Positions 10,457-34,792 of a stretch of DNA of 34,974 nucleotides are shown here, one piece after another. Numbering within the stretch: position 1 is the stretch's first letter; the number at the start of each line of letters is the position of its first letter. A program made the position numbers and the translations under genes. The notes beneath the pieces were generated by a model. It did not search any database. It had not been told where the DNA came from and worked only from the letters and a program-made list of their open reading frames with translations. The stretch covers positions 1 through 34,974 of the forward strand of contig JBEPYC010000007.1 of the NCBI GenBank assembly GCA_041641555.1. Direction: 5' to 3'. This DNA is from Chitinivibrionales bacterium. Lineage in GTDB: Bacteria; Fibrobacterota; Chitinivibrionia; Chitinivibrionales; WJKA01.

Positions 10457-10618
10457 GTAGTCTCCCGTCAAAGCTACTGAGAACCCGGGTTTGTAGCAAC
10501 CCCTCTCCGCCACGCGAGCGCAGGTCTCACGCATAGCTCCCTAAGTATAGAATAATTTATCTTCCCGTGAAAGGCAAAACAGGACTTTAGGGGCAATGAA
10601 ACCAGGCGGTTCTATCAG

Positions 10619-11894: not shown

Positions 11895-13223
11895 ATGAGA
11901 ATCACAGCCGTGCGTGCAGTATCGATTCCGCTCATGGTAACTCTCGGGTTCTTGTTTCTTGGGTGCAACGAAAACAATGCCACCGGTGCCGGCGCCACCG
12001 GGGCCGGCACACCGTTTCAGGTGGCAAAATCCGAAGCTCAGCGGATAACCGAGCCGGCATCGAGCAGTTTGCTGGAATCCCAGGCTGTATCGATCAACCA
12101 GTTCGCCCTCGACATGTACAACCAGCTTGTCGACTCCACAAGCAACCTATTCTTCTCTCCCTACAGCATAACGGCCGCCCTTGGGATGACCGAAGCCGGC
12201 GCGAGGGGAGAGACGGCCGCACAAATCAGGAAAGCACTCTCGGTTCCCTTGTCCGGTGACGACTTCCACGAAGCTATCAACAGTCTGGATTTGTCGCTTG
12301 CCGATCATGCTGAGCAAACCGAAGGTCTGACTCTCAACGTAGCCAACAGCATCTGGGCGCAGACCGGATGGGATATGCGGGTGGGGTACCTCGATTTACT
12401 CTCGCGCTACTATGGCGCCGGAGTGAACCTTCTTGATTTCAAGAACCAGCCTGATTCAAGCCGGACAATCATAAACACCTGGGTGGCCGACCAAACCAAC
12501 CAGAAAATCAAGAATCTCATCCCCGCGGGCACGATCACGACGCTTACCAGACTCGTTTTGACCAACGCAATCTACTTTCTGGGAGATTGGCTGTACCAGT
12601 TCGACCCGGCGTTGACCAGCAACGAAACGTTTACCCTGCTGGATAACCAGAGGGTATCGGTGCCACTGATGCAACTGGGAGAAAACGGAAAAGAAGTACG
12701 CATGAACTATGCGCGCAAAGGAAATGTTCGTGCGATCGATCTCCCCTATCGCGGCAACCGTCTAAGCATGACGGTCGTGCTTCCGGACCAGGGTGCATTC
12801 AGGGAATTCGAACAGAACATGACCGCCGAATCTATCGACACCCTTATCCAGGCTCTCGACTCGACCGATCTCCCGCCGGTACGCCTGCCTAAATTCACCT
12901 TTACATCCGCATCTGTTTCTCTCAAGCCTGCACTCCTTTCGCTCGGGATGACCGATGCATTCACCGGGGCTGCCGATCTTTCGGGCATTGACGGTACAAA
13001 GAGCCTGTACGTGCAAGACGTGATTCACAAGGCCTTTATCGCTGTCGATGAACAGGGCACCGAGGCCGCCGCAGCAACCGCAGTGATCATAGGAAGAACA
13101 TCGGCGCCGGTCGATCCGCCGCACTTTGTGGCCGACCGTCCGTTTGTCTACCTGATTCGCGACACCCGGACCGGAGCGATTCTTTTCATGGGGCGAGTTA
13201 TGAATCCTACCGCAGAAGGGTAA
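11895..13223 (+). CDS. Serpin (serine protease inhibitor), lipoprotein
   Basis: Lipobox FLGC; NLFFSPYSI, LTNAIYFLGDW, hinge EQGTEAAAAT, FVADRPF...ILFMGRV. Confidence 0.95.
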   Translation: MRITAVRAVSIPLMVTLGFLFLGCNENNATGAGATGAGTPFQVAKSEAQRITEPASSSLLESQAVSINQFALDMYNQLVDSTSNLFFSPYSITAALGMTEAGARGETAAQIRKALSVPLSGDDFHEAINSLDLSLADHAEQTEGLTLNVANSIWAQTGWDMRVGYLDLLSRYYGAGVNLLDFKNQPDSSRTIINTWVADQTNQKIKNLIPAGTITTLTRLVLTNAIYFLGDWLYQFDPALTSNETFTLLDNQRVSVPLMQLGENGKEVRMNYARKGNVRAIDLPYRGNRLSMTVVLPDQGAFREFEQNMTAESIDTLIQALDSTDLPPVRLPKFTFTSASVSLKPALLSLGMTDAFTGAADLSGIDGTKSLYVQDVIHKAFIAVDEQGTEAAAATAVIIGRTSAPVDPPHFVADRPFVYLIRDTRTGAILFMGRVMNPTAEG

Positions 13224-16551: not shown

Positions 16552-17853
16552 TCATTTCAAAAACAATTCGATAACCGGGACGGCCACCCGCGGTTTTTCC
16601 ACCGGCAGCTCCAATGTGAGAAGATCTGCATCCCTGGCTTCACCCATGTGATCGGCATCTTCGGGTCGAATCTCTTTCTGGATCATCCCGACCTCAGAGG
16701 CATCATTGAGCAGCTGGGCATACTCCACTTTCCCCCCGAGCCCGTCGAGGTGAAGCTGACGAAAAGGCCAGCTCATCACATGAAGGTAGAGAACATTTTT
16801 TTCCGGATTGAAGGTGAACAGGCACCCCTTGGGTGGAATATAATCCGAAGGAGCCTGGGTGCATCCGTAAATTGACCGTCCATGGCGTTTCACCCACTCC
16901 CCGATTCCCTCGAGCCGCTCCATTGTCCGTTCATCGAACTCCCCCCGACCGGTCGGTCCGACATTGAGAAGCAGGTTACCGCCCTTGCTGACCGACTCGA
17001 TAAGTAACCCGATCAGCTGCTCCACACTTTTCCAGTTGCGTTCATCGCGACAGTAGCCCCATGACCCGCCAAATGTGTGGCATGCTTCCCATACCACCGG
17101 TCGTCCGTTGACTTTCACCCACTCACGAGGCATGAACTGCTCGGGTGTTTTTACGTCCTGGTCGATCTGGAGCCGGTCATTGAGAATGATATTCGGCTGA
17201 TGCGTGCGTACAAGCCTGATAAGCTCATCGCCTCTCCACTGCTCCCGCCCTTTCCCGGGAAATCCATCGCGCTCAGGAAACGAAAAATCAAACCAGAGGA
17301 TATCGACCGTACCAAACCTCGTCATCAGTTCTTCGACCTGACCGTGAAGGTAGGAAACATACGTATCCCATTTCCGTGAGCTGTCTGCTGCAGCATACTC
17401 CCGGTCATCACGCATCGGATGGGCCCAGTCAAGGGTGTACTCAGGATGATGCCAATCCAGAAGCGAGTGGTAAAAGCCCACTTTCATGTTCTCTTCGCGA
17501 AAAGCATCTACCATTGGTGCGATCAGGTCTTTTCCGCACGGTGTCGCAGTCGTTTTGTAGTCGGTGAGTTTCGAATCCCACAGGCAGAAGCCATCGTGGT
17601 GTTTCGTGGTCACCACGAAATATTTCATGCCTGCACGGGAAGCCATTCGCGCCCAGGTGCGGGGATCATAGAGATCGGGATCGAACCGTTTGAAGTACGA
17701 CCGGTACTGTTCGGTGGTCATTTTCTCGTGGCTTTGCAGCCATTCGTGGCGGGCGCCAAGACTGTAGAGGCCCCAGTGAATGAACAGTCCGAAGCGATCA
17801 TGAGTAAACCAGCTGGTATCTCCGGGTGTGCACGCCGGACCGGGTACGGCCAT
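16552..17853 (-). CDS. Alpha-L-fucosidase (GH29), no signal peptide
   Basis: RFGLFIHWGLYS, TTKHHDGFCLW, YHSLLDW, ILWFD, SKGGNLLLNVGP. Confidence 0.93.
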   Translation of the reverse strand: MAVPGPACTPGDTSWFTHDRFGLFIHWGLYSLGARHEWLQSHEKMTTEQYRSYFKRFDPDLYDPRTWARMASRAGMKYFVVTTKHHDGFCLWDSKLTDYKTTATPCGKDLIAPMVDAFREENMKVGFYHSLLDWHHPEYTLDWAHPMRDDREYAAADSSRKWDTYVSYLHGQVEELMTRFGTVDILWFDFSFPERDGFPGKGREQWRGDELIRLVRTHQPNIILNDRLQIDQDVKTPEQFMPREWVKVNGRPVVWEACHTFGGSWGYCRDERNWKSVEQLIGLLIESVSKGGNLLLNVGPTGRGEFDERTMERLEGIGEWVKRHGRSIYGCTQAPSDYIPPKGCLFTFNPEKNVLYLHVMSWPFRQLHLDGLGGKVEYAQLLNDASEVGMIQKEIRPEDADHMGEARDADLLTLELPVEKPRVAVPVIELFLK

Positions 17854-24465: not shown

Positions 24466-25371
24466 ATGAAAATCGGGTATCCATGCATAAACAGATCGCT
24501 GGGATGCACGGCGAGCTCGACATTTCGTCTGCGAAACCTCTGCGATGAACGATTGGTAGAGACCGTTGCGTACAATCTCACCTGTCTGCATCGCATACTC
24601 AATTACAACGTCGAAAACGAGCTGTATTTTTTTCGCATTTCCTCGGATCTCATCCCGTTCGCCTCACACCCGGAATGCACTTTCGATTGGCCATCATTTT
24701 TCTCCCCGGAACTTAGAAACATCGGTGCCATTATCAAACGGCACAGCATTCGCATCTCGATGCATCCCGATCAGTTCGTCCTGATCAACGCGAAAAAAAG
24801 TGATATTGTCGACAGGAGCATCCAGGAGTTACACTACCATGCGCGGGTTCTGGACGCTCTCGGACTGACCTGCGCCGCTAAAATCCAAATCCATGTTGGC
24901 GGTATGTACGGGGAAAAACAAGAAAGCATACGTCGCTTCATCGATGTTTATAAATCCCTGGATCGATCAGTTCGTCGTCGGCTGGTTATCGAAAACGATG
25001 ACAACAGGTTTACCGCATCCGACTGTCTTCGGATCAGCAACACCTGCGGTATACCCGTCTTGTTTGATAATTTTCATCACCGCATGCACAACTCAGGCGA
25101 AAAAATGCCTGACATGCTCAAAGAGTGTGCTGCTACCTGGCGTAAATCCGATGGTGCTCCAATGACCGATTACAGTTCGCAACAACCCGGGGCCCGTCCG
25201 GGGGCGCATGTTCGGTCTATCGATACCGCTGACTTCCGATCTTTTCTCCGGGAAACACTGAGTGTCGACTTCGATATCATGCTCGAAATAAAGGACAAAG
25301 AGGCCAGTGCCCTGCAGGCTATGGATATCCTGCGAGGTGACCCCCGATGTTTCAGAGAGGAAACCAAATGA
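24466..25371 (+). CDS. uvsE: UV DNA damage endonuclease UvsE (UVDE)
   Basis: KIGYPCIN, FRISSDLIPFASH, RISMHPDQF, IHVGG, IENDD, FDNFHH, IMLEIKDKE. Confidence 0.95.
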   Translation: MKIGYPCINRSLGCTASSTFRLRNLCDERLVETVAYNLTCLHRILNYNVENELYFFRISSDLIPFASHPECTFDWPSFFSPELRNIGAIIKRHSIRISMHPDQFVLINAKKSDIVDRSIQELHYHARVLDALGLTCAAKIQIHVGGMYGEKQESIRRFIDVYKSLDRSVRRRLVIENDDNRFTASDCLRISNTCGIPVLFDNFHHRMHNSGEKMPDMLKECAATWRKSDGAPMTDYSSQQPGARPGAHVRSIDTADFRSFLRETLSVDFDIMLEIKDKEASALQAMDILRGDPRCFREETK

Positions 25372-26324
25372 GCTTACCACCAATCAAGGTAGGAATCAGT
25401 GCATGCCTTCTGGGAGAAATGGTTCGCTACGACGGCCAGCACAAGCTCGACCGATACCTTCGAGACACCCTCGGCAAATATGTCCAATGGATACCGGTAT
25501 GCCCCGAGGTAGGGTGCGGCCTGAGTATTCCCAGAGAAGCCATGCGGCTGGTGGGAAGCAGCTCCGAGGAAGCGCGTCTGACCACGGTTCGATCCGGGAT
25601 CGACCATACCCTTCGAATGCTGGACTGGACACAAGAAGAGCTTGCGAGACTTGCCCCTCAAGAGCTGTGTGGATTCGTTTTCAAGACCAAATCTCCAAGC
25701 TCCGCAATGCGTGATGCCAAACTCTATACCGAAAAAGGTCACCCTTCCCAAAGCGGGCCAGGCCTATTTGCCCGGGAGTTCATGAAAAGCTTTCCCGACA
25801 TTCCCGTAGAGGATGATGGCAGACTGCATGATGCCGGCTTGCGGGAGAATTTTATCGAACGCGTATTCGTCTTTGCCCGATGGAAGCAGTTTTACTCCGG
25901 CAGGCGAATGGCCCGGGAGTTTATCGAATTTCATACCATCCACAAACTTCTTTACATGGCGCACAGCCCGAAACACTACAGTGCGCTCGGCAAACTGGTC
26001 GCAGGCGTGAAAAAGAAACCTTCAGACGCTCTTCTGGAGGACTACTTTCATACCATGATGGACTGCCTGCGACTCATTGCCACTGTTAAGAAACATGTAA
26101 ATGTCCTCTACCATGCAATGGGCTATTTCAAGACCAACCTTTCGGCCGAAGAAAAACGGGAACTGCGCGAGATTATCGAAGAGTACCAGAAAGAGCTGGT
26201 GCCGCTCATCGTCCCCGTTGTACTCTTCCGGCATTACACGCGAAAATACGCCCAGGAATACCTCGAGAAACAGGTATATTTCTATCCGCACCCCGATGAA
26301 TTGAAGCTGCGTAATCACGTGTAA
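25368..26324 (+). CDS. DUF523-DUF1722 protein (YbgA / RudS-like thiouridine desulfidase)
   Basis: GISACLLGEMVRYDGQH, VCPEVGCG..PRE, KSPSS, EDDGRL, LRENFIERVF, YPHPDELKLRNHV; ATGA overlap with uvsE. Confidence 0.9.
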   Translation: MSLPPIKVGISACLLGEMVRYDGQHKLDRYLRDTLGKYVQWIPVCPEVGCGLSIPREAMRLVGSSSEEARLTTVRSGIDHTLRMLDWTQEELARLAPQELCGFVFKTKSPSSAMRDAKLYTEKGHPSQSGPGLFAREFMKSFPDIPVEDDGRLHDAGLRENFIERVFVFARWKQFYSGRRMAREFIEFHTIHKLLYMAHSPKHYSALGKLVAGVKKKPSDALLEDYFHTMMDCLRLIATVKKHVNVLYHAMGYFKTNLSAEEKRELREIIEEYQKELVPLIVPVVLFRHYTRKYAQEYLEKQVYFYPHPDELKLRNHV

Positions 26325-26362
26325 ATGTATTTTAAAGATTACGAGCCAATTAATGAGGAGAA

Positions 26363-27871
26363 ATGATGGCGAGAAAAACAAAAAGGGTTGTCGTGATAGG
26401 CGCCGGTCCGGGTGGTCTTACCTCGGCCATGATCCTTGCGAAAAAGGGGTTTGATGTCCGAGTCTACGAAAAGCAAAATCGGGTGGGAGGAAGAAACGCG
26501 ACTCTCACCTTAGGGCCTTATACCTTCGATACCGGCCCTACCTTCCTCATGATGAAACATGTTCTCGAAGAGGCCTTTGCCGAGGCGGGAAAAAAACTCA
26601 GGGATTACTGCAACCTCGTCGAACTCGACCCGATGTACAAGCTGTCCTATACCGATCTCGATGTCTATCCGACACGAAAGCGGGCAAAGATGGCCAGACA
26701 TCTATCCGAGCTGTTTCCGGGAAGCGAAAAGGGACTGCAAAAGTTCTACAAAAGAGAGCAGGTGCGTTTTGATAAGATGTACCCGTGTCTTCAGAAGCCC
26801 TATTCTTCGTTCAAGGACCTTTTCTCTCCTCCTTTAATCAAGGCATTACCGCACCTCGCACTCACACGCTCACTGTTTCAGGTCCTGGGAGATTATTTCC
26901 CTCCCGAGCGGCTTCGCACAAGTTTCACCTTTCAAGCCAAGTACCTTGGCATGTCTCCCTGGGAATGCCCCGGCGCTTTCACGGTCATACCTTTTATCGA
27001 GCACAATTTCGGTGTTTTCCATGTGATTGGGGGCTTGAGCAGAATCTCGGAGGCAATGGCCGAAGTAGTCCGGCAAAATGGCGGCAGCATAACCCTCTCC
27101 TCGCCGGTTCGCCGGGTTCTGACTGAACGCGGGAAGGTAACAGGGGTTGAACTCACGACCGAAGAGCGAATCGATGCCGATGCGGTCGTGGTCAACGCCG
27201 ATTTCGGGCATGCAATGACAAGCCTGTTCGAACCGGGAGTACTGAAAAAATACACTCCTGAACATGTCGCGAACATGAAGTATTCCTGCTCGACCTTCAT
27301 GCTGTATCTTGGAGTGAATACCACCTATGATGAACCCCACCACAATATTATCTTTGCGCAGGATTACAAACGGAATATCGAAGATATCGCCAAACTTCGC
27401 GCACTGCCCGATGACATGTCGATTTACGTCAGAAATGCTGCGGCATCGGATCCAACTCTCGCCCCCGACGGACACTCAGCGCTGTACGTATTAGTTCCCG
27501 TTGTTAACAATAAAGGACCGGTAGAATGGACTGAATCGGTCATTTCCGAGTATCGTGAAAAAGTCCTCGACCGCATCGTCGCCCGCACCTCCATGAAAGA
27601 CCTGAGAAGCAGAATCGTTGAAGAGAAAGTCCTCACGCCATCGTGCTGGGAGAGGTCCTATGATGTCTTTGAAGGAGCGACGTTCAACCTCGCCCATAAC
27701 CTTCGGCAAATGCTTTACTTCAGGCCGCGAAATCGATTTGAAGAAGTACGGGGATGCTACCTTGTTGGTGGAGGCACGCATCCCGGCTCGGGCCTCCCGA
27801 CAATCTACGAATCAGGTAGAATTTCATCACGCCTTGTAGAACATGACCTGGGCGGTCCCGGGTCCAGGTGA
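26363..27871 (+). CDS. crtI: Phytoene desaturase family (CrtI/CrtN-like) FAD oxidoreductase
   Basis: VIGAGPGG, FDTGPT, VVVNAD, YLVGGGTHPGSGLPTIYESG; GAGGAG RBS. Confidence 0.88.
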   Translation: MMARKTKRVVVIGAGPGGLTSAMILAKKGFDVRVYEKQNRVGGRNATLTLGPYTFDTGPTFLMMKHVLEEAFAEAGKKLRDYCNLVELDPMYKLSYTDLDVYPTRKRAKMARHLSELFPGSEKGLQKFYKREQVRFDKMYPCLQKPYSSFKDLFSPPLIKALPHLALTRSLFQVLGDYFPPERLRTSFTFQAKYLGMSPWECPGAFTVIPFIEHNFGVFHVIGGLSRISEAMAEVVRQNGGSITLSSPVRRVLTERGKVTGVELTTEERIDADAVVVNADFGHAMTSLFEPGVLKKYTPEHVANMKYSCSTFMLYLGVNTTYDEPHHNIIFAQDYKRNIEDIAKLRALPDDMSIYVRNAAASDPTLAPDGHSALYVLVPVVNNKGPVEWTESVISEYREKVLDRIVARTSMKDLRSRIVEEKVLTPSCWERSYDVFEGATFNLAHNLRQMLYFRPRNRFEEVRGCYLVGGGTHPGSGLPTIYESGRISSRLVEHDLGGPGSR

Positions 27872-28047
27872 TGAAAGCCGGAGTTTGCGTCCTTGTTTGT
27901 GTCATTTTCGGCGTTTCAGGTGCAGATACCACATGCGTTTCTCCTGTTGGAATGCCAACCCGTACCAACGATCCAGAGACGTATCACCTCGAGCTGCGGT
28001 ACATGTGGTCTGGAGTAACCCCATCAATCCCTGGCGCCAGAGCTTGA
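27871..28047 (+). CDS. Small 58-aa ORF with a signal-peptide-like N-terminus (possibly a truncated gene)
   Basis: MKAGVCVLVCVIFGVSGADTT...; TGATG overlap with the crtI stop; below the ORF-track cutoff. Confidence 0.4.
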   Translation: MKAGVCVLVCVIFGVSGADTTCVSPVGMPTRTNDPETYHLELRYMWSGVTPSIPGARA

Positions 28048-28120
28048 CCCGAAAGCATCCGGATAAGTGCACTCAAACCCCGGGACTGACGTGATCCGCC
28101 GAGCACCACCACCGTCAGAG

Positions 28121-30451
28121 CTATAATCCCCGGTCCTGAATTTCATCGATGTACCCGATCGTACCGTTTTTCAGGTTTGCCGCATTGGCTTCGTCGGTAT
28201 CCAGATGCATCGACAGCTTGTATTCAGGACTCACCCGTACAAGTACATCCCCGAAAATCAGCTCCCGGTCTCCCTCGACTCGTACGCGCACAACGTAGCG
28301 ATCCCGCAAACCCATCCGAAGAGCATCTTCCGGAGTCATGTGGATGTGACGAAGTGCGCAAATGACTCCTTCGGCGAGTTCCACCGTTCCCACGACTCCC
28401 TCAAGCGCGATACCGGGGGTTCCTTTGAGATCCCCCGATTCCCGGATTGGAGGATGTAGACCCAGCTTGAACTGCTCGGTCATCGCAATTTCCACCTGTG
28501 TTTGCGACCGGGCGGGACCGAGAACCCGGACCCGCGCAACCCTTCCTTTCGGCCCTACCAGGTCCACCTGCTCTTTGCAGGCAAACTGACCGGGCTGGGA
28601 CAGATCGCTGATGGGTGTGAGTTCATGTCCGGCACCAAAGAGAGCCTCCACATGCGCCTGCGAAAGGTGAACATGGTGAGCTGAGATTTCGATGGGAACA
28701 GGCACCTTATCCGGCCGCTGAATAGCAGATGAAGCAGAGCGGCGGCCGATTGCCCTGAGAGCCTCGCGCGCAATCATTAGTTCTTCGTTGGCAGGTATGA
28801 CCAGAACATCGACCTGAGAGTCTTCGGTGGAGATCGCAACAGGATGCTTCACACATCCTGCTTCCCGGTTTCTCTGATCGTCGATTCTGATCCCCATATG
28901 TTCAAGTCCCTGGCAAGCAAGACTCCTGACCCCGGCGCTTCCCTGTCCGATTCCTCCGGTAAAGACAACGACATCCAACCCTCCCATCGCCGCGGAATAA
29001 GCGCCGATATACTTACGAATGCGATAGGAAAACGCTTTGTATGCAAGCAACGCCCGGTGGTCGCCAGCTTGAGCTGCCGATTCGATCTCACGCATATCGT
29101 TTGAGATTCCCGAAAGCCCCAAAAGGCCGCTCTTGTTCTGCAAGAGCTCATCCAGCTGCTCCGCGGCAACTGCCCCCGTACGAAGCAGGTAGCTGATCGC
29201 ACCCGGGTCGATATCCCCGCATCGCGTGCCCATTATCAACCCCTCCGTCGGCGTCATTCCCATGGTTGTATCCACTGACCGCCCATGGTCGACCGCACAT
29301 AACGAGGCCCCGTTTCCGAGATGGCAGGTCACGACCTCCAGCTCGTTGAATGGACGTTTGAGAAATTCCGATGCTTTCAGGGCGACATACATGTGCGAGG
29401 TACCGTGAAATCCATAGCGCCGTACGCCATCTTTCTCGTAGTATTCATACGGAAGCCCATACAGGTGAGCATACGATGGCATCGTGTGGTGAAAGGCGGT
29501 GTCGAACACGGCAACATGAACCGCCGAAGGAAACAAACGACGCGCTTCACGGATGCCCAGGAGATTGACCGGATTGTGCAGCGGAGCCAGCTCAGAGAGC
29601 CGATCGATTTCTTCCTCAACCTTCTCATCGATAATTGCCGCGCTTCCGTAGGTTTTCCCGCCGTGCACTACGCGGTGGCCAATAAGATCGACCGTACCAT
29701 TTCGATCAAGCGCGTCGATTTCCTGAGACCGCAGCATGTCAAATGCCGCTTTGAGTGCATCGGCATGTCTTCCTGCCCCCAGCTCTCGCGAAATGACGCG
29801 CCCCCCGTGGTGGATGCTGAGCGACATAGACGATGAGGTCCCGATTCGCTCTACTGCACCTGTGGTCTGCATTGTACCTGTCGTGTCGAACAGGCTGAAC
29901 TTGAGCGATGAAGACCCGTTGTTTATCACCAGGATTTTCAGGGGAGTTTCGGCATGAAGCCGCATGCCATAGGGGTCCTTGTCACGGTTTAGCAGCGCCT
30001 TTTCCACCCCTTCGCGCTCGTTTTCCACCGCAAGCGCCCTGGATCTATCGGTGATTATCCTTGAAAGCGCCTTTATCGCCGCTGGAACGGTCATCAACCG
30101 CTCTGTCACGACTTCTTCGGGAACAAGCAATGCTTTGCATCGTGTAACTCCGATCACATCTGCAACGGTCCGATCCCCGGTCATTACCGACATCTCACCG
30201 AACACCCCGGCCGACTCTACTGCCGACAGCCGCTTACGGTTGCCGGCGTTGTCAACTACCGAAATCTCTGCTTTGCCCTCGAGAAGAATACCCAGAAACC
30301 GACCGGTTTCACCAAATTCGATCACTGCTTCATGCGGCTCAAAGGTAACTATTCGCGAGTCTTCGATTGTTTCCCGCACAACATCTTCAGGAATATCGGC
30401 AAAGAGCGATGTCTTTTCTTTTAGAAAAGAAACAAGGTCATTGGATTTCAT
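28121..30451 (-). CDS. ackA: Three-domain fusion: cyclic-nucleotide-binding domain, acetate/propionate kinase, PduL phosphotransacylase
   Basis: aa ~15-135 cNMP (ILLEGKAEI, FGEMS); aa 171-~565 AckA (ILVINNGSSSLKF, GHRVVHGG, APLHNP, FDTAFH, RRYGFHGTSH, CHLGNGAS, ANEELMIA); aa ~582-776 PduL (SAHHVHLS, RVLGP, RHIHM, HLDTDEANA). Confidence 0.93.
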   Translation of the reverse strand: MKSNDLVSFLKEKTSLFADIPEDVVRETIEDSRIVTFEPHEAVIEFGETGRFLGILLEGKAEISVVDNAGNRKRLSAVESAGVFGEMSVMTGDRTVADVIGVTRCKALLVPEEVVTERLMTVPAAIKALSRIITDRSRALAVENEREGVEKALLNRDKDPYGMRLHAETPLKILVINNGSSSLKFSLFDTTGTMQTTGAVERIGTSSSMSLSIHHGGRVISRELGAGRHADALKAAFDMLRSQEIDALDRNGTVDLIGHRVVHGGKTYGSAAIIDEKVEEEIDRLSELAPLHNPVNLLGIREARRLFPSAVHVAVFDTAFHHTMPSYAHLYGLPYEYYEKDGVRRYGFHGTSHMYVALKASEFLKRPFNELEVVTCHLGNGASLCAVDHGRSVDTTMGMTPTEGLIMGTRCGDIDPGAISYLLRTGAVAAEQLDELLQNKSGLLGLSGISNDMREIESAAQAGDHRALLAYKAFSYRIRKYIGAYSAAMGGLDVVVFTGGIGQGSAGVRSLACQGLEHMGIRIDDQRNREAGCVKHPVAISTEDSQVDVLVIPANEELMIAREALRAIGRRSASSAIQRPDKVPVPIEISAHHVHLSQAHVEALFGAGHELTPISDLSQPGQFACKEQVDLVGPKGRVARVRVLGPARSQTQVEIAMTEQFKLGLHPPIRESGDLKGTPGIALEGVVGTVELAEGVICALRHIHMTPEDALRMGLRDRYVVRVRVEGDRELIFGDVLVRVSPEYKLSMHLDTDEANAANLKNGTIGYIDEIQDRGL

Positions 30452-30523
30452 AGGTGATTCGTTCTGTTTTTCTGGGTTCGGTGTTTTGAGGCCCGCGGTT
30501 GCCGGTGGAGGTACACATGCCTA

Positions 30524-31123
30524 TTAGAGTATAATCCGGGCAAATTCTCGGACAATAGAATTGGCATTCGTCTGGGACACTTGCTCGATTTCACCTTCAT
30601 TCTGTTCCGGATTCAGATTGAGAAAGAACTCACTCTTGTCCTCTCCCACAAAAACTTTTGTTGCAATCCATCCTCCCTCCGGTTTCAATTGGAAATAGCC
30701 GGTTTTCGAATCCCGACTCATGTCGGTGCCCGTGATGATGGCACGAAACTCCACGCGCTCTCTGGATGACACCTCGGAAAGGATGTCCGAGACGTTGGTT
30801 GCGCCGGTCTCGGTCGCCAGTGCATAAAGAAATGCTCGACTATGCGGGCCATCCACACGAAGCAATGCTCCGTCAGTGACTGCATATCCACTGTCTGGAT
30901 TGAATCGTTTCAGCAGGATTTCTATGCCGAACGCAGTACCCCCCGTATCTGTGCCGAACCGGGCGTAGTACGTCTTGCGCTTCCCGTCATCGGCTGTCTG
31001 GCTTTGGGTTTCAGTAATCTCAAACTGCACCCTGTTCTGCTGTCCGATTTCTTGTTGCCGTCCGCAGCCGGTAAGTACAACCAGAACGAACACAACGCAA
31101 CCGGACAAGAGCCTGGCCTTCAT
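30524..31123 (-). CDS. Hypothetical lipoprotein
   Basis: Lipobox LTGC; AGGAG RBS. Confidence 0.75.
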   Translation of the reverse strand: MKARLLSGCVVFVLVVLTGCGRQQEIGQQNRVQFEITETQSQTADDGKRKTYYARFGTDTGGTAFGIEILLKRFNPDSGYAVTDGALLRVDGPHSRAFLYALATETGATNVSDILSEVSSRERVEFRAIITGTDMSRDSKTGYFQLKPEGGWIATKVFVGEDKSEFFLNLNPEQNEGEIEQVSQTNANSIVREFARIIL

Positions 31124-31127
31124 GATA

Positions 31128-31994
31128 TTACTCCTGGTTTTTTTGCTGTATGTCTATGGCCTTCTGTACGAAACGCTGCATGGGATAGTACGTCCGAAAG
31201 CCCTCAAAAGCCTGCCTTGCTGTATCCTGAATAGCCGCCGGATTTGCAAGGAGGTTTGTGCACGTTTCCACGAGGTTTTCGTACGGGACAGAACAGAGTT
31301 CCACCCGGGGGTAGGGATTCACCGGAGACTCTTCTGTCACAACACAACAGCCGTTATTGAGCAGATACGAAATCCTGACTGCCTCGAAAATTCGAACCGC
31401 ATAGAAGTGAACATTCAGGATAACTCTTGACCTGGAGATTATTGCGTCTCTTTCTTTTCCGTAGACCCCAAAGAGCGTCTCGACACGAACTCCGTTTCTC
31501 TCTCTGAGTTGATCGACAATCTTTTTCCGTCGATCCCCGAGGCTTCCATAGAAGAGAACATCTATGTCGCGGTCTGCGATTGGTTTGTGAGGAATCTGCT
31601 GGAGATTGGGGTGATACCCCAGAGGCACGTGAACCGCAGAGATTCCCCTCTGCTTGAGAAACGCGATATTCTCGCTGGAGTAGTCCCAGACGGCAGAGGC
31701 ATTGCCCAGTACCGCACGAAGGTTATCGGAATAGGCTCCCTCGGTCGCGCTCAACTGCTCCAACTGGTAGGGGATATACCGGTATGACTTGAGATGGCTG
31801 CCGTAAGCAAGAAGATGACATCCGAGGATAATATTTGTGCTGTTGGGTGCCAGCTCATTGAAGGCTATGTCACAGGAGAACCGAAGGGACTGAAAGGTCG
31901 ATTTCAGCAGATAAGCAACTTCCAGGAAACAGGCAGCATGAGTGTAGCCGGGAGGAACTATTATGCAGACACGGTAGGAGTTCTGAAGAGCCAT
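31128..31994 (-). CDS. GT-B fold glycosyltransferase-like protein (CgeB-like C-terminus)
   Basis: YQLEQL, VWDYS, DIDVLFYGS..RR, VILNVHFY..FEAVR..YLL, VVTE; start placed at MALQNS. Confidence 0.72.
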   Translation of the reverse strand: MALQNSYRVCIIVPPGYTHAACFLEVAYLLKSTFQSLRFSCDIAFNELAPNSTNIILGCHLLAYGSHLKSYRYIPYQLEQLSATEGAYSDNLRAVLGNASAVWDYSSENIAFLKQRGISAVHVPLGYHPNLQQIPHKPIADRDIDVLFYGSLGDRRKKIVDQLRERNGVRVETLFGVYGKERDAIISRSRVILNVHFYAVRIFEAVRISYLLNNGCCVVTEESPVNPYPRVELCSVPYENLVETCTNLLANPAAIQDTARQAFEGFRTYYPMQRFVQKAIDIQQKNQE

Positions 31995-32156
31995 ACATGA
32001 GAATATACAATGTCGAGCTGTTTCATGGTCCTGGGCCTTGTTATGTTCCAGGATGCAGGTGGGAGCATTCCGGTCGAAAGCTCCTGTGGAGTGACCGTAC
32101 TTCCACACAGTGCTACTGGCAAGGAGTATCAGTGTTGGCGAGACAACAGCAACGGC

Positions 32157-32744
32157 TCAGTTTTCGGCAATGCCCACAAGCAATTCCCGTAGTGCGCTTT
32201 CGATTGCGGTGTGCAGCACATCTTCGATACGGCCAGTCGTATCCAAACCTTTCCAGGACCCGCTGGTTTCGATAACGATCCTGTTGACAAGCGTCGTATC
32301 CGTCATCTCCATAACGGCAGCTTCCAGCTTCAGCAGTATGTCGAGTTTCTGCCAGAGCTTGCCACGCTCGCGCATCTCCAGGTTCAGGACATCGATCTCC
32401 ACGGCATGCGTCGCCTCAGAACGGTAGTCCGCCTGAATCGCTTTTTTTTTGAGGAGTACATGAAGCGATTGCTTCAGCGAAGAATCGATGGATGGCTCGA
32501 TGAAAACCGACGAAAAGTTCACTGCACTGCTTCGAGTGCGTCCGAGATAATTCGGCACCGAGTCATCATAGGTTTTCTCCACGCTCCCGACATAAATCCT
32601 GAGATCGGTTCGGACCGGTGGGATTGAATCGAATTCACTCAACCGGGAGTCGATAATGACCGAATCGACAGCCGGTGGCGCAGCCTTGCTGCTTTGGGCA
32701 AATGTTCCCCCCACAAGCATTCCAACTACCAGTAGCGCTCTCAT
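32157..32744 (-). CDS. Hypothetical secreted protein
   Basis: Signal peptide MRALLVVGMLVGGTFA from ATG 32744. Confidence 0.65.
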   Translation of the reverse strand: MRALLVVGMLVGGTFAQSSKAAPPAVDSVIIDSRLSEFDSIPPVRTDLRIYVGSVEKTYDDSVPNYLGRTRSSAVNFSSVFIEPSIDSSLKQSLHVLLKKKAIQADYRSEATHAVEIDVLNLEMRERGKLWQKLDILLKLEAAVMEMTDTTLVNRIVIETSGSWKGLDTTGRIEDVLHTAIESALRELLVGIAEN

Positions 32745-32782
32745 AGGACAAAGATCTGACTTACCTCGTGGCATGAGTGCTC

Positions 32783-34792
32783 CTAAAACGGATCTATTAC
32801 CGGAGGCTGGATAATACACGTAGTCGTGCGTGAAAACGTGACTTCTTTCTCCTCCGACCAGGCTCCGTCACTGTCCTGCACCCGGAACGTAAGCGTGTCG
32901 GTGCCGGTCCAGTTACTGTCAGCGACAGCCTTGGGTACAACGGTAATCCGCCCCGTGAACACCGGCAGCACAATGCAGCCAAACCCCGGCACACAGCTTT
33001 CTTTGTAATGCATGACAGAGTCTACTTTCAGATGAGTCCCTCCAGAGAAATCCCACCGACCAGTCAGGTTTGCCGGATCTTCTTCATCATAGTAGGAACT
33101 CTCCAACGACAATGTATCGAACCAGGCACTGCATTGTTTGCGCTGATTGCCAATTGTGACGACCGGTTTATCGTTGACACCCGTCACCACGAACGCCAGA
33201 TTCACCTCATCGACCTGTCCCCGTGAATCCATTACCTGAAAGGATATGACTTCGCTGACCGTCTCCCCGACAGCAAGCGTCGAATCCGTCGAGGTAATCA
33301 CAACGCGCGGTGGACCCATGAGCGTGTCTACCGCAAGCTTACCCGGCTCACCAGCCACGGTCCATGTAAGAGAATCAAGTTTGTAGGAGGCCGGGTCGGT
33401 GATTTGTGGATTGGTTATCGACACCGAGTCCATAAGGTATATCGTATCGAACGCCTGTCCTTCGGCAATGCTTTGCCCGGAGATGGAAAGCTCTGGAGGA
33501 TAGCTTTTTTCTCCATAAAACTCCAGCTCTACATCGAGCGTCGTTTGATTTCCCGCACGGTCTCGAACCCGTATCGTCTTAACGGTAATTCCGGAATCCA
33601 GACTCGAAAGCACCGCTTCGGCAGTATCACCGATAACCGACATGAGATCGCCACCCATTGTAACCGAATCGATCCCCGACTGATCGGTTACAAGGGCCCT
33701 GATTGTTACAGGAAGATTCAGTATAGTGTCGGGGAGATTACTTATGAGCGAAAGCTCCGGATCAGCCGTGTCGATTACAACCACCGTGCATTGTGCCGTC
33801 GCACTGACCTGCTGGTCATTATCGATTGCATGCACGAAACAGAAAAGGCTGTCAAGCGAAGTTCCGTGAATGGTGCGTTCAACCCGTTTCGTGGTACTTG
33901 CAGACAAAAACACATTTGTATCGATTACGGTCCCCTCCGAAGATGTCAGGCGAAAGATCGAGGCAAGAAGAGAACCATCGGTATCTTCGAGCTCGAAGCC
34001 CACCGTTACCGAGTCTTGGATATGAACCGTATACAGGCCTTGTTCCGCATCGGCGGTTGGAAGGCTGTTATCGGATTCCACGATATGGATGGTCTTCAAG
34101 AGCGAATCTGCTCCACCGGCAGTCCTGGTGACGGTAGCTTTCAGGGTCCAGGTCCCCGGCTCAGCGATACTCAGGTAAAAAGGTATGAGTGCATCCACCG
34201 TATTTCCCGAGGCAAGCACCCTGCTGCTGGATTGGCCAGAAAGCATAATCTGGTAATTATCCAGATGTGACGGAAAACGCGTGACCAGCGTGCAGATAAT
34301 CGCCTGCCCTGCCGACAAGGAATCATTTCGCGACGATATTTGCCGGAACGAGCGCAGCGGATCCAGCCCCGCATCTCGTGAAGAGTCGGCTTGTCGGACA
34401 TGTATTTCGCGAGTCAACCGGTCTTCTTCCCCGTTGGTTTTCAGGATTGTAACCAGCAAGGTCCATTGCCCCGTATCCCCATCTCCGACGCTGAGCACAA
34501 GGGGTACCAGAGAATCTTTCACTACCCCCTCTTCGATACCGATGGTGGTGTTTTCCCGGGATATGTCCACGAAATAGCTGTCAACGTACCCCGGTTTTGT
34601 CACCATGAGCGTACAAAGCAGCTCCTGTCCTTCAACCAGTGAGTCCCCAAGAATGGTAAGCGTGGAAAGCGAGCGATTCTGATCGATCCGCGCGTCTTCG
34701 GCGGGATCCGTCGGAAGAGGAGGAGCGGCGCACGAAAGAAGCAAAATGATACTAACCAGAGGCTGGGCGTATAAGAGGTGAAATCTATTCAT
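32783..34792 (-). CDS. Surface lipoprotein with tandem Ig/cadherin-like domains
   Basis: Lipobox LLSC; Asp/Ser/Thr-rich beta domains; VRDRAGN, VNDKP, FRVQDSDG; internal duplications. Confidence 0.78.
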   Translation of the reverse strand: MNRFHLLYAQPLVSIILLLSCAAPPLPTDPAEDARIDQNRSLSTLTILGDSLVEGQELLCTLMVTKPGYVDSYFVDISRENTTIGIEEGVVKDSLVPLVLSVGDGDTGQWTLLVTILKTNGEEDRLTREIHVRQADSSRDAGLDPLRSFRQISSRNDSLSAGQAIICTLVTRFPSHLDNYQIMLSGQSSSRVLASGNTVDALIPFYLSIAEPGTWTLKATVTRTAGGADSLLKTIHIVESDNSLPTADAEQGLYTVHIQDSVTVGFELEDTDGSLLASIFRLTSSEGTVIDTNVFLSASTTKRVERTIHGTSLDSLFCFVHAIDNDQQVSATAQCTVVVIDTADPELSLISNLPDTILNLPVTIRALVTDQSGIDSVTMGGDLMSVIGDTAEAVLSSLDSGITVKTIRVRDRAGNQTTLDVELEFYGEKSYPPELSISGQSIAEGQAFDTIYLMDSVSITNPQITDPASYKLDSLTWTVAGEPGKLAVDTLMGPPRVVITSTDSTLAVGETVSEVISFQVMDSRGQVDEVNLAFVVTGVNDKPVVTIGNQRKQCSAWFDTLSLESSYYDEEDPANLTGRWDFSGGTHLKVDSVMHYKESCVPGFGCIVLPVFTGRITVVPKAVADSNWTGTDTLTFRVQDSDGAWSEEKEVTFSRTTTCIIQPPVIDPF

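What the first reader, a model, noticed from the sequence alone, without database searches (positions are those of the whole stretch)
28121..30451. cNMP-sensor/acetate kinase/PduL fusion: a complete acyl-CoA to acid + ATP pathway in one regulated polypeptide
Seen: one uninterrupted 776-aa ORF with an N-terminal cyclic-nucleotide-binding fold (~30410-30050), a full acetate kinase (29941-~28757) and a full PduL (~28706-28121) with both His-rich metal motifs. Established: AckA normally pairs with a separate Pta, and PduL is the unrelated phosphotransacylase mostly known from bacterial microcompartment loci. No shell-protein or pta gene is present in this window. Inference: the fusion channels labile acetyl-phosphate between the two active sites and puts substrate-level phosphorylation, or the acetyl-phosphate pool, under direct allosteric second-messenger control. 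I know of no characterised enzyme with this architecture, though database homologues may exist.
Basis: partly seen in the sequence, partly recalled or inferred. Interest (0 to 1): 0.85.

Follow-up and report, generated by a model that had tools for sequence, protein, structure and literature searches.

The report
Sensor-tagged acetate kinase–PduL fusion enzyme
One gene joins a sensor-like domain to the two enzymes that turn acetyl-CoA into acetate plus ATP; the fusion is real and widespread in bacteria, but its sensor lacks the residue that normally holds cyclic nucleotides, so what it senses is unknown.

Summary
Window 28121..30451 (-) is one 776-aa ORF with full Pfam matches to cNMP_binding, Acetate_kinase and PTAC/PduL. 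All checked catalytic residues of both enzymes are present. It is not an artefact. The 120 listed database homologues share the architecture. So do 41 of the 80 kept genome loci, which carry about ten phylum labels and include cultured isolates. One independent contig bridges both domain junctions. The genome has no Pta and no BMC shell gene. It does have PFOR and Acs. Among 41 related genomes, fusion and Pta are nearly exclusive: 15 fusion only, 9 Pta only, 2 both. The Ack-PduL fusion and the channelling idea were already printed in 2016. The second-messenger reading is weak. The cyclic-phosphate arginine is absent in 0 of 42 family members, replaced by Thr in the window protein. New here: the non-canonical sensor, a CNB-Ack form without PduL in relatives that have Pta, a single origin of the sensor-bearing clade, and a CRP-like dimer model. 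Verdict: a housekeeping Pta-Ack substitute with an uncharacterised sensor. Moderate interest.

The parts
28121..30451 (-). Whole gene, 776 aa plus stop: CNB-like domain, acetate kinase, PduL-type phosphotransacylase
   Evidence: ORF list, translation, Pfam and NCBIfam. Met1 matches the family start in 113 of 120 sequences.
30101..30349 (-). cNMP_binding (PF00027) beta-barrel core, residues 35-117
   Evidence: At 49 bits it ranks 12th of the genome's 13 PF00027 matches.
30149..30202 (-). Non-canonical phosphate-binding cassette, residues 84-101 (F-G-E-M-S-V-M-T-G-D-R-T-V-A-D-V-I-G). Thr95 sits where canonical domains have the cyclic-phosphate Arg.
   Evidence: Family columns. The canonical motif is quoted from PMC2246266.
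29984..30085 (-). Long C-helix, residues 123-156. Predicted CRP-like dimer helix.
   Evidence: AlphaFold2 models. Homodimer model with interface at 116-149 plus 87 and 90-93.
29957..29977 (-). Conserved linker D159-P-Y-G-x-x-L165 between the C-helix and acetate kinase
   Evidence: D159 and P160 are present in 120 of 120 sequences. The motif is kept in CNB-Ack proteins without PduL. Low pLDDT in the model.
28766..29938 (-). Acetate kinase domain, residues 172-562
   Evidence: Alignment to 1g99 with all checked catalytic and pocket residues kept.
28697..28765 (-). Ack-PduL linker, residues 563-585. Helical extension followed by a low-confidence stretch at 573-580.
   Evidence: AlphaFold2 model.
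28169..28696 (-). PduL/PTAC domain, residues 586-761, with six Zn ligands H593, H595, E654, H702, H704, H749
   Evidence: Ungapped alignment to 5cuo. Residue roles from PMC4784909. Family counts.

Best explanation
The gene encodes a microcompartment-independent bifunctional enzyme that stands in for the classical Pta + AckA pair. The C-terminal PduL domain would convert acetyl-CoA + Pi to acetyl-phosphate + CoA. The central acetate kinase would convert acetyl-phosphate + ADP to acetate + ATP. In this genome it is the only recognisable phosphotransacylase and the only acetate kinase. It most likely works downstream of pyruvate:ferredoxin oxidoreductase as the ATP-yielding acetate branch of fermentation, with AMP-forming Acs covering acetate uptake.

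The N-terminal domain has the cyclic-nucleotide-binding fold of the CRP/FNR type and belongs functionally to the kinase. It probably dimerises through its long C-helix and is tied to the kinase by a conserved D-P-Y-G linker. Its binding cassette lacks the arginine that clamps a cyclic phosphate. If it senses a small molecule, that molecule is probably not cAMP or cGMP bound in the usual way.

Shown: architecture, intact active sites, distribution, the near-exclusive pattern with Pta. Inferred: direction of flux, dimer, allostery, ligand, channelling.
For: - **Architecture and active sites.** All three domains match over the curated cut-offs. The six PduL Zn ligands plus R103, S127, S45, R97, L99, Q74, Q77, Q107, R194 and N211 are kept; only K70 is changed, to Ser. 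In the 100-sequence family alignment the six ligands are 100 of 100. Ack equivalents of N7, R91, V93, L122, H123, D148, F179, H180, N211, G212, P232, R241 and E384 are all kept in the window protein.
- **Sole route in this genome.** PF06130 gives 1 match and PF00871 gives 1 match, both this gene. PF01515 gives 0 and PF00936 gives 0. PFOR is present at 1821 bits and Acs at 988 bits. There is no PFL and no phosphoketolase over the cut-off.
- **Pattern with Pta in relatives.** Among 41 genomes of the same order, 17 have the PduL match. In each it lies on the same contig as an Ack match, and in the same open frame where the frame is not cut by a contig end. Eleven have a strong Pta. Only 2 have both, and these have 7% and 9% contamination. 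That leaves 15 fusion only, 9 Pta only and 15 neither.
- **Independence from microcompartments.** BMC shell genes occur in 1 of 41 genomes (G045). There a separate 234-aa PduL and a separate Ack sit in the BMC locus beside the fusion elsewhere.
- **Gene context.** In 5 of 81 loci the gene is followed by serine dehydratase, pyruvate formate-lyase and its activase.
- **The sensor goes with the kinase.** CNB-Ack proteins without PduL, with the same linker, occur in 3 relatives that have a separate Pta. The CNB-bearing fusions form one side of a branch with 99 SH-like support, needing 1 change among 78 rows.
- **Dimer.** The homodimer model of residues 1-170 scores 0.53, best of 3 controls 0.01. 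The mark was reached by 20 of 30 proteins solved as pairs of one chain and 1 of 23 solved as single chains. Runs agree in at least 86% of contacts and partner pLDDT is at least 76. My own alignment was used, so the counts hold only roughly.
- **Non-canonical cassette.**
Against: - No enzyme of this architecture has been assayed, as far as my searches show. Activity, direction and specificity are inferred from residues.
- The genome is 91.65% complete in 550 contigs, so a missing Pta or BMC gene is not proven absent.
- The exclusive pattern does not hold everywhere. All 5 cultured or named carriers searched (Dechloromonas sp. ARDL1, Azonexus sp. IMCC34839, Zoogloea oleivorans, Verrucomicrobium sp. 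BvORR106, Ca. Magnetobacterium casense) have a PF01515 match. Several of these are 760-820-aa frames that may be malic enzymes, which I did not resolve.
- Related genomes are not independent samples.
- The window protein keeps Glu86 and has Arg94 one position before the canonical Arg site. The genome also has a class III cyclase domain (89.7 bits) and 12 other CNB domains. cNMP binding is therefore not excluded.
- The dimer pass may reflect the model's memory of solved CRP/FNR dimers.
- Conservation of the cassette could serve the dimer contact rather than a ligand.
Confidence: 0.7

Rival explanations
1. One reading: the N-terminal domain is a true cAMP or cGMP receptor, so substrate-level phosphorylation and the acetyl-phosphate pool are under direct second-messenger control.
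For: The Pfam cNMP_binding match is above the cut-off. The window protein keeps F84-G85-E86 and Gly50 of the beta2-beta3 loop, and has a basic residue (R94) next to the canonical Arg site. The genome encodes a class III cyclase domain and 12 further CNB domains. cAMP-bound CRP, GlxR and Clr are among the closest folds.
Against: The canonical Arg position is Thr95 in the window protein. In the 120 close homologues it is Thr in 106, Ser in 9 and Ala in 4 (only the three commonest residues were printed, so the last one is not known). It is Arg in 0 of 42 genome-derived members. The neighbouring basic residue is not conserved: R 19, P 16, K 3, A 3 of 42. The ribose-binding Glu is Val in 10 of 42 and Leu in 1. 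Kannan et al. 2007 treat loss of Arg209 as the mark of non-canonical cassettes that bind other ligands. The closest sequence and fold matches include the cAMP-independent trypanosome PKA regulatory subunit, whose Arg is likewise replaced by Thr or Asn.
Confidence: 0.17
2. The CNB-like domain binds no ligand at all. It is a dimerisation or scaffold module that fixes the geometry of the Ack and PduL dimers.
For: The predicted dimer interface uses the C-helix and cassette residues 87 and 90-93. Cassette conservation could therefore serve the interface. Fusions without the domain (36 of the 80 kept loci) evidently work without it.
Against: Ack and PduL already dimerise on their own in solved structures (recalled for Ack; PduL dimer in PMC4784909). 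A 170-residue domain with a strongly conserved pocket motif and linker in about ten phyla is costly for a mere clamp. CNB-Ack proteins without PduL keep it.
Confidence: 0.2
3. The enzyme mainly runs in reverse, activating acetate (acetate + ATP + CoA to acetyl-CoA) for assimilation or storage-polymer synthesis.
For: Both reactions are reversible (PMC4784909 introduction). Many carriers are Rhodocyclales-type respirers (Dechloromonas, Azonexus, Zoogloea) that have other PTA_PTB proteins.
Against: This genome has an AMP-forming Acs (988 bits) for uptake and a PFOR that supplies acetyl-CoA. In 5 loci the gene is followed by serine dehydratase and PFL genes, which make pyruvate and acetyl-CoA.
Confidence: 0.15
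4. It is a propionyl-CoA to propionate + ATP enzyme, a PduL + PduW/TdcD equivalent, rather than an acetate enzyme.
For: NCBIfam names both halves 'acetate/propionate family kinase' and 'phosphate propanoyltransferase'. The propionate kinase equivalog scores 419 bits, below its 580 cut-off. R. palustris PduL prefers propionyl-CoA (PMC4784909).
Against: The four residues that I recall as the acetate pocket of M. thermophila Ack (V93, L122, F179, P232) are identical here. There are no propanediol or BMC genes in the genome. It is the only Ack in a genome with PFOR.
Confidence: 0.08
5. The fusion is an assembly chimera or a frameshift artefact.
For: The genome is a 550-contig assembly. There is an assembly-graph branch at 28181-28210.
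Against: The 120 listed homologues share the architecture at 57-62% identity and 98-100% coverage. So do 41 loci, including complete chromosomes of isolates. One Logan contig covers 28181-30800 with 0 differences.
Confidence: 0.01

Closest known systems
Ack-PduL multidomain proteins noted by Erbilgin et al. 2016 (PLoS Biol, PMC4784909)
   Same: PduL (two PF06130 halves) joined to an acetate kinase, with no encapsulation peptide. The authors proposed that it replaces Pta and channels substrate (passage read). Of the 80 kept loci, 36 are this two-domain form.
   Different: That paper gives one passing sentence, with no assay and no mention of a cyclic-nucleotide-binding domain in the passages I read. 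The window protein belongs to the clade that also carries the N-terminal sensor.
Classical Pta + AckA pathway (PF01515 + PF00871)
   Same: Same two reactions and the same acetate kinase family. Near-exclusive occurrence with the fusion among 41 related genomes.
   Different: The phosphotransacylase is the unrelated PduL fold with a di-zinc site. The two enzymes are one polypeptide, and a sensor-like domain is attached.
PduL of bacterial microcompartments (R. palustris 5CUO; Salmonella PduL) and free PduL that replaces Pta in acetogens
   Same: Full-length PF06130 match and all six Zn ligands kept. Free PduL substituting for Pta is cited in PMC10579272.
   Different: No encapsulation peptide, no shell genes in the genome, and fused behind Ack. 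In G045 the BMC locus has its own separate PduL.
CRP/FNR-type sensor domains (CRP, GlxR, Clr, DNR; 3e97)
   Same: Best PDB sequence match is 3e97 (E 1.1e-08). Same fold, long C-helix and predicted C-helix dimer in which the cassette touches the partner's helix.
   Different: No helix-turn-helix domain; an enzyme follows instead. The cassette lacks the Arg used by cAMP-binding members.
Trypanosomatid cAMP-independent PKA regulatory subunit (6FLO, 6HYI, 6FTF), which binds purine nucleosides
   Same: Among the top sequence and fold matches. The canonical Arg is replaced by Thr (T318 there, T95 here) and followed by Val (V319 there, V96 here).
   Different: The Glu at the Ala202 position that makes the 'ribose-binding cassette' is absent here: it is Ser88, with Ser or Ala across the family. 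No capping Tyr was tested. Fold E-values (about 5e-11) barely differ from those of cAMP-bound CRPs (about 1e-10), so this is a lead and not a ligand assignment.
Mycobacterial cAMP-regulated protein acetyltransferase Pat (CNB domain + GNAT)
   Same: A CNB domain fused directly to an enzyme of acetyl-CoA/acetate metabolism. Weak NCBIfam hit NF058543 (E 0.00088, 18.2 bits against a cut-off of 460). The biology of Pat is recalled and was not read here.
   Different: Different catalytic domain. Pat binds cAMP through a canonical cassette (recalled). The hit is far below the cut-off.

Membership tests
Acetate/propionate kinase (PF00871, TIGR00016) | Full-length profile match above the curated cut-off | tested here: met
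   PF00871 1-392 of 392, 479 bits (cut-off 22). TIGR00016 472.9 bits (cut-off 293.4)..
Acetate/propionate kinase (PF00871, TIGR00016) | Catalytic and substrate residues of M. thermophila Ack (N7, R91, H123, D148, H180, R241, E384; pocket V93, L122, F179, P232). Roles are recalled and were not read here. | tested here: met
   All are identical in the alignment to 1g99. In the family of 100, R91, H123, D148, H180, P232 and R241 are 100 of 100.
Acetate/propionate kinase (PF00871, TIGR00016) | Acetyl-phosphate + ADP to acetate + ATP activity | not testable with these tools
   Needs an enzyme assay.
PduL / PTAC phosphotransacylase (PF06130, NF011652) | Full-length profile match above the curated cut-off | tested here: met
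   PF06130 1-176 of 176, 256 bits (cut-off 25). NF011652 261.8 bits (cut-off 209)..
PduL / PTAC phosphotransacylase (PF06130, NF011652) | Di-zinc site His48, His50, Glu109, His157, His159, His204, and phosphate contacts Arg103, Ser127 (PMC4784909) | tested here: met
   H593, H595, E654, H702, H704, H749, R648, S672. The six ligands are 100 of 100 and 80 of 80 in the two alignments.
BMC-associated PduL (metabolosome core enzyme) | N-terminal encapsulation peptide and shell genes (PF00936) in the genome | tested here: not met
   The PduL N-terminus is joined to Ack. PF00936 gives 0 matches in the genome at 91.65% completeness. Of the 17 fusion carriers among the 41 relatives, 16 have no shell gene.
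Cyclic-nucleotide-binding domain (PF00027) | Profile match above the gathering cut-off, and the fold | tested here: met
   46.1 bits against 27.5. AlphaFold2 model with beta-barrel and helices. Foldseek matches at E about 1e-10 to CNB domains.
Cyclic-nucleotide-binding domain (PF00027) | Canonical phosphate-binding cassette with the Arg209-equivalent arginine (PMC2246266) | tested here: not met
   Thr95 in the window protein. Arg in 0 of 42 genome-derived members. Thr in 106 of 120 close homologues.
Cyclic-nucleotide-binding domain (PF00027) | Binding of cAMP or cGMP | not testable with these tools
   Needs a binding assay.
CRP/FNR transcription factors | C-terminal helix-turn-helix DNA-binding domain | tested here: not met
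   Acetate kinase follows the C-helix and Pfam finds no HTH.
CRP/FNR transcription factors | Dimer through the long C-helix | tested here: inconclusive
   Model score 0.53 against a best control of 0.01, with the interface on residues 116-149. The pass may come from likeness to solved CRP dimers.
Trypanosomatid nucleoside-binding 'ribose-binding cassette' | Glu at the Ala202-equivalent position (E311/E435 of TbPKAR), which is critical for nucleoside binding (PMC10959531) | tested here: not met
   Ser88 in the window protein. Ser in 90 and Ala in 30 of 120 homologues.

The most novel reading that the evidence does not exclude
The N-terminal domain is a receptor for a ligand that is not a cyclic nucleotide. 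Candidates are a metabolite of the pathway or an energy-state signal such as acetyl-phosphate, CoA or acetyl-CoA, AMP or ADP, or a nucleoside. The ligand would bind between the altered cassette and the partner's C-helix of a CRP-like dimer, and the conserved D-P-Y-G linker would pass the signal to acetate kinase. That would make this a self-regulating acetyl-phosphate/ATP valve present in about ten bacterial phyla, and a new ligand class for bacterial CNB domains attached to a central metabolic enzyme.
Probability: 0.35. Interest if true: 0.7.

Novelty: new variant of a known kind. Interest (0 to 1): 0.48.

Why it matters
Acetate excretion through acetyl-phosphate is a central ATP source of anaerobes, and acetyl-phosphate is itself a global acetyl and phosphoryl donor. 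Textbook control of this node is transcriptional or by mass action. Here a large family puts a sensor-type domain directly on acetate kinase, with or without a fused PduL. The family spans at least about ten phylum labels and includes cultured Dechloromonas, Azonexus, Zoogloea and Verrucomicrobium strains.

If the domain is allosteric, it would be the first direct small-molecule switch on the Ack step. It would also give a handle on acetyl-phosphate levels.

There are practical consequences too:

- **Genome annotation.** Metabolic reconstructions that look for Pta will wrongly score these organisms as lacking the acetate-ATP branch, because the gene is named only 'acetate/propionate family kinase'.
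- **Engineering.** The fused, shell-free Ack-PduL is a compact two-step module for engineering and for testing channelling of a labile intermediate.

The gene itself is otherwise an ordinary housekeeping enzyme of a known family.

Tried and rejected
- **Conserved operon partner.** I clustered ORFs within 6 kb in 81 loci. No universal neighbour emerged. The largest cluster (12 loci) is generic histidine-kinase/response-regulator proteins and was set aside as domain-driven clustering. In the window the four upstream ORFs (30524-34792, minus strand) have no Pfam match at E<=0.01, apart from one weak glycosyltransferase-like hit.
- **Extra N-terminal domains in long open frames.** L006, L021, L073, L061, L051 and L048 showed none. 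These are open frames upstream of the true start.
- **Promoter and terminator scan of 27800-31300.** It found 1 promoter-like site against 2.1 expected, and 2 terminator-like sites against 3.3 expected, both of them inside the gene. This is no evidence.
- **Protein atlas search with residues 1-170.** It returned only generic CNB clusters, one of which carries Acetate_kinase in 46% of members. Nothing new.
- **Representative search with residues 1-170.** It gave 3029 hits at E<=0.001, 214 at <=1e-10 and 5 at <=1e-30. Many of the best are short fragments, so I drew no architecture census from it.
- **Foldseek on the CNB model.** It does not separate ligand classes: trypanosome cAMP-independent PKA-R at about 5e-11 against cAMP-bound CRPs at about 1e-10. 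I considered a nucleoside ligand and did not adopt it, because the key Glu is missing.
- **RNA evidence.** No RNA holder is listed for the stretch. Only run X1, a possible source of the DNA, holds it. X2 and X3 hold next to none of its words.
- **Literature.** These searches found no paper on a CNB-Ack-PduL or CNB-Ack enzyme: 'acetate kinase' + 'cyclic nucleotide-binding domain' + 'phosphotransacetylase' (0 papers); 'acetate kinase' + 'phosphate propanoyltransferase' + 'fused' (2 papers, judged unrelated from title and abstract start only); 'PduL' + 'cNMP' (3 papers hold the terms, 1 listed, judged unrelated from title and abstract start only); 'cyclic nucleotide binding' + 'acetate kinase' + 'domain architecture' (0); 'acetate kinase' + 'PduL' + 'Pta' + 'lack' (16 papers; I read passages of 2). 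Subscription journals are not covered and supplements were closed. The supplementary tables of PMC4784909 and PMC2246266 may list such architectures.
- **Organism name.** I did not establish the taxonomic name of the window's organism.
- **Pta in the five named carriers.** I did not run TIGR00651 on them. One search used only PF01515, which also matches malic enzymes.
- **Rows dropped.** L060 (in-frame stop inside Ack) was left out of alignment A2 and the tree. L041 and L049 (cut by contig ends) were left out of the tree.


Full report
**1. What is there**

Window 28121..30451 on the minus strand is a single ATG-initiated ORF of 776 codons with no internal stop. Pfam places three domains on it:

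| Domain | Residues | Profile coverage | E-value |
|---|---|---|---|
| cNMP_binding | 35-117 | 2-84 of 89 | 4.8e-12 (46.1 bits, cut-off 27.5) |
| Acetate_kinase | 172-562 | 1-392 of 392 | 8.7e-144 |
| PTAC/PduL | 586-761 | 1-176 of 176 | 1.8e-76 |

NCBIfam agrees, with TIGR00016 ackA at 472.9 bits and NF011652 phosphate propanoyltransferase at 261.8 bits, both over their cut-offs. No solved PDB chain spans more than one of the three parts. The best matches are M. thermophila acetate kinase 1g99 (E 1.2e-120), R. palustris PduL 5cuo (E 1.6e-45) and a Crp/Fnr-family protein 3e97.

**2. Are the enzymes intact?**

The PduL part aligns to 5cuo without a gap. I took residue roles from passages of Erbilgin et al. 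2016 (PMC4784909).

- The six zinc ligands His48, His50, Glu109, His157, His159 and His204 correspond to H593, H595, E654, H702, H704 and H749.
- Arg103 and Ser127, which position phosphate, are R648 and S672.
- Ser45, Arg97, Leu99, Gln74, Gln77, Gln107, Arg194 and Asn211 are kept.
- Only the CoA-contacting Lys70 is changed, to Ser615.

In a 100-sequence family alignment the six ligands are 100 of 100, and in an 80-sequence alignment 80 of 80.

The kinase part aligns to 1g99 over residues 1-394. The equivalents of N7, R91, V93, L122, H123, D148, F179, H180, N211, G212, P232, R241 and E384 are all identical in the window protein. The roles of these residues are recalled from the Ferry laboratory's work and were not read here. 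Asn211 is the least conserved, at 77 of 100. I see no sign that either domain is inactive.

**3. Artefact?**

No.

- The search for homologous proteins returned 7375 proteins at E<=0.001 among 8000 scored. Many of these will be plain kinases. The 120 listed all carry the same three Pfam families, at 57-62% identity, 98-100% query coverage and lengths of 763-851 aa.
Of those rows, 589 encode some relative, which need not be a fusion, and the best 80 loci were kept.
- In all 80 kept loci the match runs through kinase and PduL in one frame.
- A Logan contig of run X1 (2958 letters) lies on 28181-30800 with no differences, so it bridges both junctions. X1 may be the source sample, which makes this a second assembler and not second data. 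The assembly graph branches at 28181-28210 near the gene's 3' end.

**4. Three architectures**

I built an HMM of residues 1-168 from the 120 homologues and scanned the loci.

- 41 of the 80 loci have the CNB domain.
- 36 are complete Ack-PduL proteins of about 585-620 aa without it.
- 2 are cut by contig ends (L041, L049).
- 1 has an in-frame stop in the kinase (L060) and was dropped.

Long upstream open frames in six loci hold no further Pfam domain.

Record titles of the CNB class name Fibrobacterota, Planctomycetota, Bacteroidota, Margulisiibacteriota, Pseudomonadota, Verrucomicrobiota, Binatota, Thermodesulfobacteriota, Chloroflexota and Nitrospirota. One record is labelled Bifidobacteriaceae. 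The Pseudomonadota include isolates: Dechloromonas sp. ARDL1, D. hankyongensis, Azonexus sp. IMCC34839 and Zoogloea oleivorans. The Verrucomicrobiota include Verrucomicrobium sp. BvORR106. The Nitrospirota include Ca. Magnetobacterium casense. The sensor-less class is mainly Myxococcota, Lewinellaceae and marine Gammaproteobacteria.

On a FastTree of the Ack-PduL part (78 rows, 615 columns) the CNB label needs one change, on a branch with 99 SH-like support. Phyla are mixed within clades. This is FastTree with a midpoint root. It is consistent with one gain or one loss plus lateral transfer, and does not prove either.

A third form turned up among close relatives. In G019, G030 and G038 the kinase sits in 568-670-aa ORFs that carry cNMP_binding + Acetate_kinase and no PduL. 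They score about 100 bits against my CNB HMM and keep the D-P-Y-G-F linker. Those three genomes have a separate Pta. The sensor therefore travels with the kinase and not with PduL.

**5. Role in the cell**

In the window's genome (4.2 Mb, 550 contigs, 91.65% complete, 4.17% contamination) this gene is the only PF06130 match and the only PF00871 match. There is no PF01515 (Pta/Ptb) match and no PF00936 (BMC shell) match. The genome has a nifJ-type pyruvate:ferredoxin oxidoreductase (1821 bits) and an AMP-forming acetyl-CoA synthetase (988 bits). It has no PFL and no phosphoketolase over the cut-off.

Among the 41 genomes of its family and order the picture is as follows.

| Category | Genomes |
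|---|---|
| PduL match present, on the same contig as an Ack match (same frame of 656-886 aa where not cut by a contig end) | 17 |
| Strong Pta (TIGR00651, E<=1e-90) | 11 |
| Both fusion and Pta (G006, G017; contamination 7% and 9%) | 2 |
| Fusion only | 15 |
| Pta only | 9 |
| Neither | 15 (13 of these also lack any Ack match) |

Shell genes occur in 1 of 41 genomes (G045). There a separate 234-aa PduL and a separate kinase lie in the shell-gene contig, while the fusion lies elsewhere. This serves as an internal control: the BMC version stays unfused.

Related genomes are not independent, and absences in incomplete genomes are not proof. The pattern also breaks outside this order. All 5 named carriers searched have a PF01515 match. 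Several of those are 760-820-aa frames that I suspect are malic enzymes and did not resolve.

Gene context is not conserved overall. In 5 of 81 loci (L006, L009, L010, L012, L014) the fusion is followed by serine dehydratase, pyruvate formate-lyase and its activase. That is a pyruvate to acetyl-CoA to acetate + ATP string.

Together this supports a housekeeping substitute for Pta + AckA, most likely running towards acetate and ATP in this organism. The direction of flux is inferred.

**6. The sensor domain**

Kannan et al. 2007 (PMC2246266, passages read) define the canonical cassette as FGE[LIV]AL...[PV]R209. They single out Arg209, which holds the cyclic phosphate, and list families with other residues there as non-canonical and likely to bind other ligands. 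In the passages I saw, none of their 30 families is an acetate kinase fusion.

The window's cassette is F84-G-E-M-S-V-M-T-G-D-R94-T95-V-A-D-V-I-G. In ungapped register with the consensus, Thr95 falls on Arg209 and Arg94 falls on the preceding Pro.

- **In the 120 close homologues** that column is Thr in 106, Ser in 9 and Ala in 4. Only the three commonest residues of each column were printed, so the remaining one is not known. The preceding column is Lys in 62, Arg in 46 and Gln in 6.
- **In the 42 more diverse genome-derived members** the Arg209 column is Thr 14, Ile 7, Leu 5, Ala 5, Met 4 and others, with Arg in 0 of 42. The preceding column is Arg 19, Pro 16, Lys 3, Ala 3. The ribose-binding Glu is Glu 31, Val 10, Leu 1. 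What stays conserved is T/S91, G92 (40), A97 (37), D98 (40) and the linker D-P-Y (36-38 of 42).
- **The three CNB-Ack proteins** also lack the Arg.

Against Pfam's model the domain is the second weakest of the genome's 13 CNB matches. The genome does encode a class III cyclase domain at 89.7 bits, so cNMP signalling exists in the cell. This domain, however, does not have the usual means of reading it.

By sequence and by fold, the closest solved relatives include the cAMP-independent regulatory subunit of trypanosome PKA. In that protein the Arg is replaced by Thr318 or Asn442, and purine nucleosides bind instead (Ober et al. 2024, PMC10959531, passages read). The Glu that is decisive there is Ser88 in the window protein, and cAMP-bound CRPs score almost as well. 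I treat this as a precedent for re-tuned CNB pockets and not as a ligand call.

**7. Shape and mechanism**

AlphaFold2 on a 100-sequence alignment gives mean pLDDT 86.7 and pTM 0.72. It shows a 34-residue C-helix (123-156), a low-confidence linker that contains the conserved D-P-Y-G motif, and a low-confidence stretch at 573-580 between the kinase and PduL.

A homodimer model of residues 1-170 scored 0.53 against a best control of 0.01.

- The mark was reached by 20 of 30 proteins solved as pairs of one chain and by 1 of 23 solved as single chains.
- Runs agree in at least 86% of contacts, and partner pLDDT is at least 76.
- My own alignment was used, so these counts hold only roughly.

The interface is the C-helix (116-149), with cassette residues 87 and 90-93 touching the partner's helix. 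This is the CRP arrangement. CRP dimers are solved, so the pass shows likeness and may come from the model's memory.

My working mechanism, inferred throughout: a CRP-like dimer sits on the N-termini of the kinase dimer. Occupancy of the pocket between cassette and partner helix shifts the helices, and the conserved linker passes this to the kinase's N-terminal domain. Channelling of acetyl-phosphate between PduL and the kinase is plausible and untested. The tool does not return coordinates, so I could not measure the distance between active sites.

**8. Comparison and novelty**

The two enzyme halves are ordinary members of their families. The Ack-PduL fusion, its lack of encapsulation peptides and the channelling idea were printed in 2016. 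Free PduL replacing Pta is accepted in genome papers.

My six relevant searches found nothing in print on several points (and the passages):

- the sensor-bearing form;
- its non-canonical cassette;
- the CNB-Ack variant;
- the near-exclusive pattern with Pta;
- the single-branch origin of the sensor-bearing clade.

Supplements and subscription journals were out of reach. Databases name the protein only 'acetate/propionate family kinase' or 'acetate kinase'.

I rate it a new variant of a known kind. It is a real, widespread and unassayed regulatory architecture on a central enzyme, but not the cAMP switch that was proposed. Interest 0.48.

Noticed in passing
L085 1141-2886 (-), L086 1125-3137 (-), L087 1094-2800 (+) (genomes G019, G038, G030): Two-domain CNB + acetate kinase proteins without PduL, with the same D-P-Y-G-F linker. 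They occur in relatives that carry a separate Pta. This is a third architecture of the family.
   Followed up: partly
G045:C187:1432-4911 (relative genome; no locus was fetched): The only BMC shell-gene cluster among the 41 related genomes. It has five PF00936 matches with its own 234-aa PduL and a 383-aa Ack. The same genome also has the fusion on another contig.
   Followed up: partly
L006, L009, L010, L012, L014, downstream of the fusion gene: Serine dehydratase, pyruvate formate-lyase and PFL-activase genes follow the fusion on the same strand in Verrucomicrobiota-, Binatia- and Margulisiibacteriota-labelled records.
   Followed up: partly
window 30524-34792 (-): Four consecutive ORFs (199, 326, 220 and 669 aa) directly upstream of the fusion gene have no Pfam family at E<=0.01, apart from one weak glycosyltransferase-like hit (17 bits) in the 326-aa ORF. 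The 199-aa ORF ends 72 bases before the fusion's start.
   Followed up: no
window 11895-13223 (+): A full-length bacterial serpin (PF00079, 378 bits).
   Followed up: no
window 8426-10534 (-) and 16552-17853 (-): An alginate-lyase-like protein with CHB_HEX_C and F5/8 type C domains, and an alpha-L-fucosidase. These suggest a polysaccharide-degrading lifestyle.
   Followed up: no
window 28181-28210: Assembly-graph branch in run X1. A second contig (490 letters, depth 5) shares only these 30 letters and then diverges. It may be a related strain or another PduL-bearing organism.
   Followed up: no
L060 8001-9770: An Ack-PduL gene in an Alphaproteobacteria-labelled MAG has an in-frame stop inside the kinase domain. 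This is either a pseudogene or a sequencing error.
   Followed up: no
L088 581-2107 (+) (genome G025): An acetate kinase in a 508-aa ORF with an N-terminal extension of about 110 aa that has no Pfam match. The TTG start is uncertain.
   Followed up: no
window 24466-27871 (+): UvdE UV-endonuclease, a DUF1722/2-thiouracil-desulfurase-like protein and a phytoene-desaturase-like flavin amine oxidase lie in a row, converging on the 3' end of the fusion gene.
   Followed up: no
P0001 residues 105 and 136: Cys105 (87 of 100) and Arg136 on the C-helix (98 of 100) are strongly conserved in the sensor domain. Arg136 is not among the predicted dimer contacts and could face the pocket.
   Followed up: no
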